From the human T2T-CHM13v2.0 reference genome, Homo sapiens: a stretch of 64,000 nt of DNA. Positions 10,561-11,760 of the stretch are shown one piece after another. Every line of letters starts with the position of its first letter. The stretch's first letter is position 1. The notes below the pieces were generated by a model. That model was given only the letters and a program-made list of their open reading frames with translations, was not told the DNA's origin and searched no databases. Made by a program: the position numbers and the translations under genes. The DNA lies in the NCBI RefSeq assembly GCF_009914755.1, contig NC_060941.1, one strand, 5' to 3'.

Positions 10561-10698
10561 TGGATTGATTGATTAACACAGGAGCCAATGAACTAGAGCC
10601 AGTGAGCCCAGCCGGCCAGCTGCCTTGGAAGGCCTGTGGGTATAAAATAGTTTTTATATTTTTAAATGGTTAACAAAAAAATCAGACATTTGCAACTA

Positions 10699-11310
10699 TT
10701 TTTTGGTTTTTGGTTTGTTTTTTTTTTCCCCTCCTTTTTTTTTTTTTTGAGTTATTAAGAAAAAACAACAAAAAACACAACCAAAAGAACTGACGAGAGG
10801 AAGATAAAGCCTCGGGATCAGCCAGAGACCGAGTGGCATATGGGATGAGGCACAGGTCAGGCCTAGCTGGGTCTGTGGAGCAAGGTGGTGGGAAGTCCCA
10901 AGGCCTTTGGGCCTGTGGGGTCTGCGGAAGGAGAGGAGGTCACTTAAGAAAATATATATACTGTACACATCTATACGACGCGTCCCATGTTGGGGGAGTG
11001 GGGCGAGGTCATGGGAGCTGGTCCACTCTCTCCTCGGACCAGCCTCCCCGCAGGCTCACTGGCTTGGCCAGCACAGGGACCCCTGCAGCTGGCTGTTGTC
11101 TTCTGTGGAGCGAGGGAAGGTAACAGTTTAGCTCCCACCCATGGTGGGCAGAGGTCAGCGGAGGTCAGAGGCATGGAGATGGCCACCGCTCAGCTAGGAA
11201 ATCCCTGTGCCTGGTGCTCGTGCCCGTCATACAGTCTGCTTTGCTGTCTTCTTTCTACTTTTTCCTTCTTTTTCTTCTGGGACGGTGACTCAGGGTCTTT
11301 GGTTGAGGAC
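10699..11310 (-). pseudogene. TCOF1: 5'-truncated processed retrocopy of TCOF1 (last ~28 codons, 3' UTR and poly(A) tail)
   Basis: Minus strand reads STKDPESPSQKKKK...KKTAKQTV* (TGA at 11229-11227), matching the recalled treacle C-terminus [25 protein letters not shown], with a frameshift in the K-run. It continues into sequence matching the recalled TCOF1 3' UTR and ends in a degenerate poly(A) (T-run 10699-10748). Confidence 0.85.
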
Positions 11311-11599
11311 TTTTTTTGAGACAGTGACTTGCTCTGTCGCCCAGGCTGGAGTGTAGTGGCACAATCTTGGCTCACTGCAACCTCCACCTCCCAGGTTCAA
11401 GCAATTCTCATGCCTCAGCCTCCCAGGTAGCTGAGATTACAGGCGTGCACCACTACGCCTGGCTAATTTTTGTATTTTTAGTAGAGACAGGGTTTCACCA
11501 TGTTGTCCAGGCTGGTGTCAAACTCCTGACCTCAAGTGATCCACCTGCCTTGGCCTCCCAAAGTGCTGGGATTTCAGGCATGAGCCACCGAGCCCAGCC
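11311..11599 (-). mobile_element. Alu (S-type), 5' component of the Alu-TCOF1 chimera
   Basis: Full-length Alu with only an A7 tail, running directly into TCOF1-derived sequence. Confidence 0.92.
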
Positions 11600-11760
11600 T
11601 GCAACTAATTTTGATGGTCGAGAACACTGTGAACCTCAATTAGGCAAAATTTATCTCCCTCCCCAAAGATTCTGTTCTTCTCAGTAGACCTGTATTACCA
11701 AAAAATTGTACTTAATTATTATAACATTTTTATTTCATCAAGTAGAAAACTGTGGAAATT

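What the first reader, a model, noticed from the sequence alone, without database searches (positions are those of the whole stretch)
10691..11612. Chimeric Alu-TCOF1 retro-insertion bracketed by a single target-site duplication
Seen, on the - strand in order: TSD AAAATTAGTTGCA (11612-11600), a full-length AluS (11599-11318), only A7, GTCCTCAACCAAAGACCCTGAGTCACCGTCCCAGAAG... encoding [22 protein letters not shown], ~480 nt of 3'-UTR-like sequence, a degenerate poly(A), and TSD AAAAATAGTTGCA (10703-10691). The TSD copies differ by one base and flank both parts together; there is none at the internal junction. The 5' flank reads TC/AAAA, like an L1 endonuclease site. Known (recall): treacle ends [25 protein letters not shown], its mRNA has an A-run (Lys codons) just before the junction point, and L1 reverse transcriptase can switch templates to make bipartite chimeras (U6-L1, U6/Alu-mRNA types). 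Inference: one TPRT event copied ~560 nt of spliced TCOF1 mRNA, then jumped to an Alu RNA tail through A-run microhomology. I am not aware of an annotated TCOF1 pseudogene here, but I cannot check.
Basis: partly seen in the sequence, partly recalled or inferred. Interest (0 to 1): 0.82.

Follow-up and report, generated by a model that had tools for sequence, protein, structure and literature searches.

The report
TCOF1 retrocopy behind an old Alu
A short, intron-less copy of the end of the TCOF1 gene sits directly behind a full-length Alu repeat inside one pair of flanking repeats, and it most likely landed in the tail of an Alu that was already there, which makes it an ordinary relic of retrotransposition.

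Summary
On the - strand lie a 13-nt direct repeat (12 of 13 identical, found only at these two places in the window), a full-length S-type Alu, A7, about 583 nt copied from the last three exons of TCOF1 on chr5 with both introns missing, an A-rich tail, and the second repeat copy. The junction falls inside an exon at an A6 run of the TCOF1 mRNA, so there are 6-7 nt of microhomology.

The single-event template-switch reading is not shown. Every structural feature is equally expected if a TCOF1 cDNA was later primed in the A-tail of a resident Alu.

The two parts also differ in mutational age:
- The Alu has lost 18 of 22 ancestral CpGs, like other S/J-type Alus nearby.
- The TCOF1 part has lost 5 of 19 (Fisher p = 5e-4) and matches the profile of local Y-type Alus.
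- Non-CpG divergence points the same way but is not significant.
- No diverged source copy of the Alu was found.

My odds are about 0.68 for two sequential L1-mediated insertions and 0.25 for a single chimeric event. Orthologous primate loci would settle it, but I could not consult them. Either way this is a new member of a known kind and of low interest.

The parts
11600..11612 (-). Upstream copy of the target-site duplication (AAAATTAGTTGCA on the - strand), preceded by TC. The bottom strand therefore reads TTTT/GA, an L1-endonuclease-like site.
   Evidence: (family D19) and 48: only 2 matches with at most 1 mismatch in the window, against 0.10 expected.
11318..11599 (-). Full-length S-type Alu body, 282 nt from position 1 to ...GTCTC.
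   Evidence: SRP/7SL model hits on both monomers, E 1.8e-13 and 1.6e-12; aligns over 1-282 with other Alus; 0 of 7 Y-type alleles. CpG decay 18/22.
11311..11317 (-). A7 run between the Alu body and the TCOF1 sequence. Six of these A's plus the next G also match the parent mRNA (AAAAAAG), so the breakpoint is ambiguous by 6-7 nt.
   Evidence: BLAST alignment runs AAAAAAGTCCTC against AAAAAAGGCCTC. Parent exon context also.
11254..11310 (-). Copy of the 3' part of TCOF1's third-from-last exon, starting 46 nt inside that exon. Its last 5 nt, GTAGA (11254-11258), match the first 5 nt of the parent intron.
   Evidence: 58 of 63 identical; SSTKDPESPSQKKKK....
11204..11253 (-). Copy of the penultimate TCOF1 exon, including the parental stop codon TGA at 11227-11229. 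A parent intron of about 570 bp is absent before it.
   Evidence: 47 of 50 identical...KKTAKQTV*.
10728..11203 (-). Copy of the last TCOF1 exon (3' UTR) down to the mRNA's 3' end. A parent intron of about 740 bp is absent before it. It includes the templated A14 (10735-10748) and GGAGGGG (10728-10734).
   Evidence: 443 of 474 identical; the chr2 and second chr5 retrocopies end at the same ...GGAGGAAGGG(T) before their tails.
10704..10727 (-). A-rich tail, A10 C A3 CC A5 CC, running into the A's of the TSD. It is pure near the TCOF1 end and interrupted further out. Under the two-step reading the outer part is the old Alu tail.
10691..10703 (-). Downstream copy of the target-site duplication (AAAAATAGTTGCA on the - strand), with 1 mismatch to the upstream copy.

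Best explanation
There were two successive L1-mediated insertions at one spot.

1. An S-type Alu inserted at TTTT/GA and created the 13-nt duplication AAAATTAGTTGCA. This step is shown, apart from which element owns the TSD.
2. Later, in the period when Y-type Alus were inserting, L1 endonuclease nicked the T-run opposite the Alu's A-tail. The likely position is the body/tail boundary, where the bottom strand reads TTTTTTT/GAGAC. The T-run primed reverse transcription of a spliced, polyadenylated TCOF1 mRNA.
3. cDNA synthesis covered about 583 nt, the last three exons, and ended where the mRNA has an A6 run. The T6 at the cDNA end paired with the A-rich top-strand end of the Alu tail, a microhomology-mediated 5' junction.
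4. The second event's own target-site duplication consists only of A's, so it cannot be seen, and the old Alu TSD appears to bracket both parts.

The retrocopy is a dead fragment: frameshifted, mostly 3' UTR, with its AATAAA signal lost. Steps 2-4 are inferred.
For: (a) Identity of the parts. The copy matches three collinear chr5 exons with both introns absent. The parent locus is the one carrying all 10 Treacle-family hits. The 3' end coincides with that of two other TCOF1 retrocopies.

(b) Unequal mutational age.
- The Alu has lost 18 of 22 inferred ancestral CpGs (13 of 17 under a stricter CpG call).
- The TCOF1 part has lost 5 of 19 (4 of 12 if only parent-CG sites are counted).
- Fisher p = 5e-4 for 18/4 against 5/14, and p = 0.008 for 18/4 against 4/8.

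(c) Local calibration on 113 near-full-length Alus from 264 kb.
- The 13 Y-type Alus have median non-CpG divergence 3.1% and median CpG decay 43%.
- The 87 non-Y Alus have 6.4% and 79%. Of these, 0 of 87 have decay of 30% or less and 2 of 87 have 51% or less.
- The TCOF1 part (2.7-3.0% non-CpG, 26% CpG decay) fits the Y-type profile.
- The Alu has 0 of 7 Y-type alleles and 82% decay.

(d) No diverged source or sibling Alu was found that could have donated an already decayed RNA.
- The best other Alu is 90.7% identical, among 40 scored of 5621 candidates.
- All 7 copies sharing two private transversions are 83.7-86.5% identical.
- No listed place is shared between the two private-motif searches.

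(e) Base rate. 11 of 104 local Alus with an intact 3' end have another Alu head-to-tail within 60 nt behind the tail.

(f) Mechanism in print.
- Levy et al. 2010 (PMC2836564, passages read) describe sense-oriented nested insertion hotspots at A-runs in Alu, with the nick at a TTTT|AG body/A-run boundary.
- The background of Kojima 2010 (PMC2912911, passages) describes 5' joining through microhomology between cDNA and the target.

(g) The tail is pure A10 next to the TCOF1 end and interrupted further out, as expected for a young poly(A) followed by an old Alu tail.
Against: - Non-CpG divergence does not separate the parts significantly: Alu 11/223 (or 9/232) against TCOF1 12/450 (or 11/371), p = 0.17-0.83. 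If four recurrent variants are treated as subfamily markers, the Alu falls to about 5/232.
- The CpG argument assumes equal CpG decay rates in the Alu and the adjacent TCOF1 sequence, which I could not verify. The numbers are small: the TCOF1 confidence interval is 9-51%.
- A control meant to validate the CpG ordering failed to do so. In 11 head-to-tail Alu pairs the upstream copy was more decayed in 6 and the downstream copy in 5.
- An A-run of only 7 between the Alu body and the insert is short for an insertion into a tail. All 11 local head-to-tail Alu pairs have 17-53 nt between them, and Levy et al. put the two nicks 15-16 nt apart. The reading therefore needs a short stagger, trimming at the junction or later contraction.
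- The hunt for a source Alu was not exhaustive.
Confidence: 0.68

Rival explanations
1. Single-event chimera. One TPRT event primed on TCOF1 mRNA copied about 583 nt. At the A6 run the L1 reverse transcriptase, with its nascent T6 end, then switched to the A-tail of an Alu RNA and copied it to its 5' end. The 13-nt TSD belongs to this single event.
For: - The element meets the structural features listed for L1-made bipartite chimeras in Gogvadze et al. 2007 (PMC2104539, background passages): a full-length 5' part, a 5'-truncated 3' part, direct joining in the same orientation, and flanking direct repeats.
- There are 6-7 nt of A-run microhomology exactly at the junction.
- Only A7 lies between the parts, which is shorter than in any of the 11 local sequential-looking Alu pairs.
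- Law and Burns 2026 (PMC13174262, sections 10 and 12 read) report 452 TSD-bounded Alu/LINE-1 insertions with mostly full-length, sense Alus 5' of a truncated L1. An Alu as the 5' partner therefore has precedent.
- Non-CpG divergence of the two parts is statistically indistinguishable.
Against: - CpG decay is 18/22 in the Alu against 5/19 in the TCOF1 part, p = 5e-4.
- The TCOF1 part looks like Y-type Alus in age while the Alu is S-type with S-type decay. To hold, this reading needs an Alu RNA from an already decayed copy, and no such copy was found.
- None of the structural features discriminates against insertion into an Alu tail.
- The base rate of something sitting head-to-tail behind an Alu tail is high locally, 11 of 104. 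By contrast, the 452 Alu/LINE-1 cases come from the whole genome.
Confidence: 0.25
2. The reverse order: the TCOF1 retrocopy inserted first, and the Alu later landed exactly at its 5' edge.
For: Nothing specific. It is considered only because the two parts are adjacent.
Against: - An Alu inserting on its own would carry its own TSD. The 13 nt before the Alu (AAAATTAGTTGCA) have no counterpart after its A7, where GTCCTCAACCAAAG follows (no such repeat family).
- The Alu looks older than the TCOF1 part, not younger.
- The matching repeat lies beyond the TCOF1 tail.
Confidence: 0.02
3. The Alu was part of the TCOF1 transcript (an intronic or exonised Alu), so the whole element is an ordinary retrocopy of a single RNA.
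For: None found.
Against: - The junction lies 46 nt inside the parent exon.
- The parent sequence upstream of the junction is Lys-rich coding exon, preceded by an ordinary acceptor (...cccttag). There is no Alu in the 90 nt shown.
- Searching the genome with the TCOF1 part found no Alu-TCOF1 junction elsewhere.
Confidence: 0.02

Closest known systems
5'-truncated processed pseudogene (L1-mobilised mRNA retrocopy) inserted at the A-tail of a pre-existing Alu
   Same: It is spliced, 5'-truncated, ends at the mRNA's poly(A) site and carries an A-rich tail. It has the same orientation as the target Alu. The endonuclease-type site and A-run priming agree with the nested-insertion hotspots at Alu A-runs described by Levy et al. 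2010.
   Different: Only 7 A's remain between the Alu body and the insert, where 15 or more would be usual. The second event's TSD cannot be seen because it would consist only of A's.
L1-made bipartite chimeric retrotranscripts: the U6/L1 type and the Alu/LINE-1 chimeras of Law and Burns 2026. I recall an Alu-mRNA type from Buzdin et al. 2003, but that paper is not held and was not seen.
   Same: A full-length small-RNA or SINE copy lies 5' of a truncated polyadenylated RNA copy, in the same orientation, within one TSD at an endonuclease-like site.
   Different: The 3' partner is a cellular mRNA rather than L1. Co-arrival of the parts is not shown, and the CpG clock argues against it. An Alu, unlike U6, brings an A-tail that is itself a preferred insertion target, so the architecture alone is not diagnostic.
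The two other TCOF1 3'-end retrocopies in this genome, at chr2:155622183-155622656 and chr5:129090301-129090718
   Same: They have the same parent and the same 3' end (...GGAGG..., then an A-tail). Both are 5'-truncated within the last two exons.
   Different: They are older: 83% and 86% identity to the chr17 copy, with 8.9% and 4.6% private non-CpG change. Neither has an Alu at its 5' end.

Membership tests
Processed pseudogene (retrocopy) of TCOF1 | Collinear match to the parent's exons with the introns precisely missing | tested here: met
   three exon pieces with 90-94% identity. Parent introns of about 570 and 740 bp, with GT/AG ends, are absent. Five extra nt (GTAGA) sit at the first junction.
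Processed pseudogene (retrocopy) of TCOF1 | The parent locus is TCOF1 | tested here: met
all 10 Pfam Treacle (PF03546) hits in the genome lie at chr5:150910706-150916270 on the + strand, 19 kb upstream on the same strand. The parent reading frame ends [15 protein letters not shown] when spliced (read).
Processed pseudogene (retrocopy) of TCOF1 | Ends at the mRNA's polyadenylation site and is followed by an A-tail | tested here: met
   three independent retrocopies end at the same ...GGAGG(AAGGG) about 20 nt after the parent's AATAAA, followed by A-rich tails.
Processed pseudogene (retrocopy) of TCOF1 | Its own target-site duplication | tested here: inconclusive
   The only visible TSD also encloses the Alu. 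A TSD made of A's would be invisible.
Alu, S-type | Dimeric 7SL-derived structure, full length, with S-type rather than Y-type alleles | tested here: met
   two SRP-model hits; aligns over 1-282; 0 of 7 data-driven Y-type alleles. Assignment to a named S subfamily was not made because no reference consensus was available.
L1-made bipartite chimera (template switch in one TPRT event) | The 5' part is a full-length copy of a cellular RNA and the 3' part is a 5'-truncated copy, joined directly in the same orientation | tested here: met
   The features are as listed in PMC2104539. The join is through A7, of which 6 A's are shared with the mRNA.
L1-made bipartite chimera (template switch in one TPRT event) | One pair of short direct repeats flanks the whole element, with none at the internal junction | tested here: met
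   This is also expected for an insertion into the Alu tail, so it is not diagnostic here.
L1-made bipartite chimera (template switch in one TPRT event) | Both parts arrived together, meaning joint presence or absence across species (the criterion of Law and Burns 2026) | not testable with these tools
   No primate genome is held. The genome tool states that the assembly has no relatives here.
L1-made bipartite chimera (template switch in one TPRT event) | Equal mutational age of the two parts (an indirect proxy for co-arrival) | tested here: not met
   CpG decay is 18/22 against 5/19, p = 5e-4. The TCOF1 part fits the Y-type Alu profile and the Alu the S-type profile. Non-CpG divergence is not significantly different (p = 0.17-0.83). 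Equal CpG decay rates are assumed.

The most novel reading that the evidence does not exclude
This is a true single-event Alu-mRNA chimera. L1 reverse transcriptase copied the 3' end of a spliced TCOF1 mRNA and then switched, through a 6-7 nt A-run microhomology, to the start of the A-tail of a bystander S-type Alu RNA transcribed from an old, CpG-decayed copy. It would be a natural example with a readable microhomology junction of a template switch onto a non-master Alu RNA.
Probability: 0.25. Interest if true: 0.35.

Novelty: new member of a known kind. Interest (0 to 1): 0.2.

Why it matters
It matters little for biology. The element is a dead, frameshifted fragment in the intergenic stretch between TTYH2 and DNAI2.

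Its value is methodological. For chimeras whose 5' part is an Alu, a single outer TSD, shared orientation and junction microhomology do not distinguish a template switch from a later insertion into the Alu's A-tail. Catalogues of Alu-containing chimeras therefore need timing evidence with fine resolution.

It also adds one unannotated TCOF1 retrocopy, which could cross-map with reads or probes aimed at the TCOF1 3' UTR. Two further copies elsewhere in the genome could do the same.

Tried and rejected
- Two-tails idea. I first took the GGAGGGG that interrupts the A-rich 3' end as the border between a TCOF1 tail and an Alu tail. I rejected this: it is templated from the parent's 3' UTR end.
- Alu inserted after the retrocopy, or the Alu as part of a TCOF1 transcript. 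Both are rejected on the TSD layout and the mid-exon junction.
- Hunt for a diverged source or sibling Alu.
  - The whole-Alu search gave a best hit of 90.7% among 40 scored of 5621 candidates.
  - A 45-mer carrying two private transversions gave 110 hits with at most 1 mismatch. The 7 that kept both changes were fetched and are 83.7-86.5% identical.
  - A 42-mer from the 3' end gave 105 hits with at most 2 mismatches, none at a place listed. 100 of 110 and 100 of 105 places were listed.
  - Nothing was found, but the hunt was not exhaustive.
- Non-CpG clock. It points the same way as the CpG clock but is not significant.
- Control of the CpG ordering on 11 head-to-tail Alu pairs. The split was 6 to 5, so it validates nothing.
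- Clustering the Alus into 3 or 4 groups did not isolate a young group. A split on alleles associated with low CpG decay did. 13 of the 113 Alus with intermediate allele scores (2-4 of 7) were left out of that split.
- Literature.
  - Buzdin et al. 2003 (PMC169886) and Buzdin 2004 (PMC11138840) are not held.
  - A search for 'TCOF1' with 'processed pseudogene' found 3 papers. By title and abstract start, none is about a TCOF1 pseudogene.
  - I did not open the supplementary tables of Law and Burns. They list LINE-1 chimeras, not mRNA retrocopies.

Full report
**What is there.** Read on the - strand, the interval 11612-10691 holds, in order:
- AAAATTAGTTGCA (11612-11600), preceded by TC.
- An Alu from its first base to ...GTCTC (11599-11318, 282 nt).
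- A7 (11317-11311).
- About 583 nt of unique sequence (11310-10728).
- An A-rich tail, A10CA3CCA5CC (10727-10705).
- AAAAATAGTTGCA (10703-10691).

The 13-mer occurs, with at most 1 mismatch, only at these two boundaries in the 64-kb window. 0.10 matches are expected by chance, and 0 of 100 shuffles reached 2 (family D19). Both Alu monomers hit the 7SL/SRP covariance model, with E 1.8e-13 and 1.6e-12.

**Origin of the unique part.** The window's own genome is held. A DNA search with 10745-11312(-) found, besides the copy itself, three collinear pieces on chr5:
- 150934939-150935000 (query 1-62).
- 150935563-150935612 (query 60-109).
- 150936349-150936806 (query 107-568), with 90-94% identity overall.

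The pieces are bounded by AG and GT in the parent, and the intervening stretches of about 570 and 740 bp are absent from the chr17 copy. All 10 genomic hits to Pfam Treacle (PF03546) lie at chr5:150910706-150916270 on the same strand, 19 kb upstream. The parent is therefore the 3' end of TCOF1. Spliced, the parent reads ...[16 protein letters not shown].

The chr17 copy is frameshifted. SSTKDPESPSQKKKKEKVERR... is in one frame and ...KKTAKQTV* in another.

The parent reads A10TA4GACTTGGAGGAAGGGT there. Two other TCOF1 retrocopies, at chr2:155622183-155622656 and chr5:129090301-129090718, carry the same end before their own tails.

**The junction.** The parent exon reads ...AAAGCAAAAAAGGCCTCAACC and the chr17 element reads ...CTGTCTCAAAAAAAGTCCTCAACC. 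The break therefore lies 46 nt inside an exon, at an A6 run, and 6-7 nt could come from either partner. There is no direct repeat at this internal junction.

**Why the architecture does not prove a single event.** An Alu brings an A-tail, whose complementary T-run is a preferred L1 endonuclease and priming site.
- If a TCOF1 cDNA was primed there later, it would have the Alu's orientation. Its own TSD would consist of A's and be invisible. The Alu's old TSD would enclose both parts.
- The truncation at an A-run would follow from pairing between the T-rich cDNA end and the A-rich top-strand end. Kojima 2010 summarises such models (PMC2912911, passages).
- Levy et al. 2010 (PMC2836564, passages) describe sense-oriented hotspots at A-runs inside Alus, with the first nick at the TTTT|AG body/A-run boundary. 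At this Alu's body/tail boundary the bottom strand reads TTTTTTT/GAGAC.
- In the 264 kb around the finding, 11 of 104 Alus with an intact 3' end have another Alu head-to-tail within 60 nt behind their tail. That position is therefore often occupied.
- By comparison, Law and Burns 2026 (PMC13174262, sections 10 and 12) list 452 TSD-bounded Alu/LINE-1 chimeras genome-wide, and they rely on multi-species timing to call them.

**Ages of the two parts.**
- For the TCOF1 part I polarised differences using the parent and the two older retrocopies.
  - There are 35 differences in 557 aligned columns. Of these, 15 are specific to the chr17 lineage (12 non-CpG) over 492 columns with an outgroup, 6 are specific to the parent and 9 are ambiguous.
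  - In the region shared by all four sequences, chr17 has 11 private non-CpG changes in 371 columns.
  - Of 19 CpGs inferred at the time of retroposition, chr17 keeps 14 and has lost 5. Of the 12 sites that are still CG in the parent, 4 are lost.
- For the Alu I aligned 113 near-full-length Alus from the window and 200 kb of flanks.
  - The Alu differs from the majority at 24 of 270 positions, and at 9 of 232 outside CpGs.
  - It has lost 18 of 22 inferred CpGs, or 13 of 17 under a stricter definition.
- CpG loss differs between the parts. Fisher p = 5e-4 for 18/4 against 5/14, and p = 0.008 for 18/4 against 4/8.
- Non-CpG divergence does not differ significantly (p = 0.17-0.83).

**Local calibration.** I used alleles associated with low CpG decay to split the Alus.
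- The 13 Y-type Alus have median non-CpG divergence 3.1% (range 1.4-4.5) and median CpG decay 43% (18-71).
- The 87 non-Y Alus have 6.4% and 79% (50-100). Of these, 0 of 87 have decay of 30% or less and 2 of 87 have 51% or less.
- The TCOF1 part, at 2.7-3.0% and 26%, fits the Y-type profile.
- The Alu has 0 of 7 Y-type alleles, 4.0% non-CpG divergence (rank 6 of 87) and 82% decay.

**Could the Alu RNA have been old already?** A template switch onto an RNA from an old, decayed Alu copy would reconcile the ages. Such a source should share the Alu's private changes.
- The best other Alu is 90.7% identical, among 40 scored of 5621 candidates.
- The 7 copies sharing two private transversions are 83.7-86.5% identical.
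- No listed place is common to the two private-motif searches.
- None was found, but the search was not exhaustive.

**Points against the two-step reading.**
- A7 is short. The 11 local head-to-tail Alu pairs have 17-53 nt between them, and the usual nick stagger is 15-16 nt.
- The CpG argument assumes equal decay rates in the two parts and rests on small counts.
- My attempted validation on Alu pairs split 6 to 5.
- Non-CpG divergence is inconclusive.

**Verdict.** For the mechanism I put two sequential L1-mediated insertions at about 0.68 and a single-event template switch at about 0.25. The other two orders or origins take about 0.04 together, and the remainder is unassigned. Either way the element belongs to known kinds: a processed pseudogene fragment at an Alu tail, or an Alu-led chimeric retrotranscript. 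The hub's RefSeq table lists nothing here, and I could not check the GENCODE or retrocopy databases. Primate orthologues would decide the question.

Noticed in passing
window 11254-11258 (- strand); parent chr5:150934993-150934997 in L002: At the first exon-exon junction the retrocopy carries GTAGA, identical to the first 5 nt of the parent intron (gtagagagttcc). This suggests that the source mRNA used a downstream alternative donor, for example after GTAGAGA, with 2 nt lost later. That would change the reading frame of the C-terminus. I did not check it against transcript annotation.
   Followed up: partly
L003 (chr2:155622183-155622656) and L004 (chr5:129090301-129090718): These are two further 5'-truncated retrocopies of the TCOF1 3' end, older than the chr17 copy (83% and 86% identity to it). 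The second chr5 copy has a visible CCCTTTCC-type TSD and lies right behind an A-rich, C-interrupted run.
   Followed up: partly
L002, TCOF1 last exon (chr5:150936351-150936806): Since the chr17 retroposition, the parent 3' UTR shows 0 private non-CpG changes in 371 shared columns, against 11 in the chr17 copy, although it has lost 6 of 14 CpGs. This suggests purifying selection on the TCOF1 3' UTR.
   Followed up: no
window 10400-10569: An Alu on the + strand (SRP-model hit at 10400-10529) has a tail that has turned into a (TAAA)n-like microsatellite, AAAAAATAAATAAATACATAAATAAATAAATAAT (family D1). This shows how strongly old Alu tails are remodelled at this locus.
   Followed up: no
window 43952-44529, 57217-57820, 62177-62739 and others: There are eleven same-orientation head-to-tail Alu pairs with 17-53 nt between them in 264 kb. 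Two pairs have a much less CpG-decayed downstream copy (0.80 against 0.55, and 0.82 against 0.43), as expected for later insertion behind an Alu tail.
   Followed up: partly
window 10735-10748: A pure A14 run in the retrocopy arose from the parent's A10TA4 by a T-to-A change, which destroyed the AATAAA polyadenylation signal.
   Followed up: no
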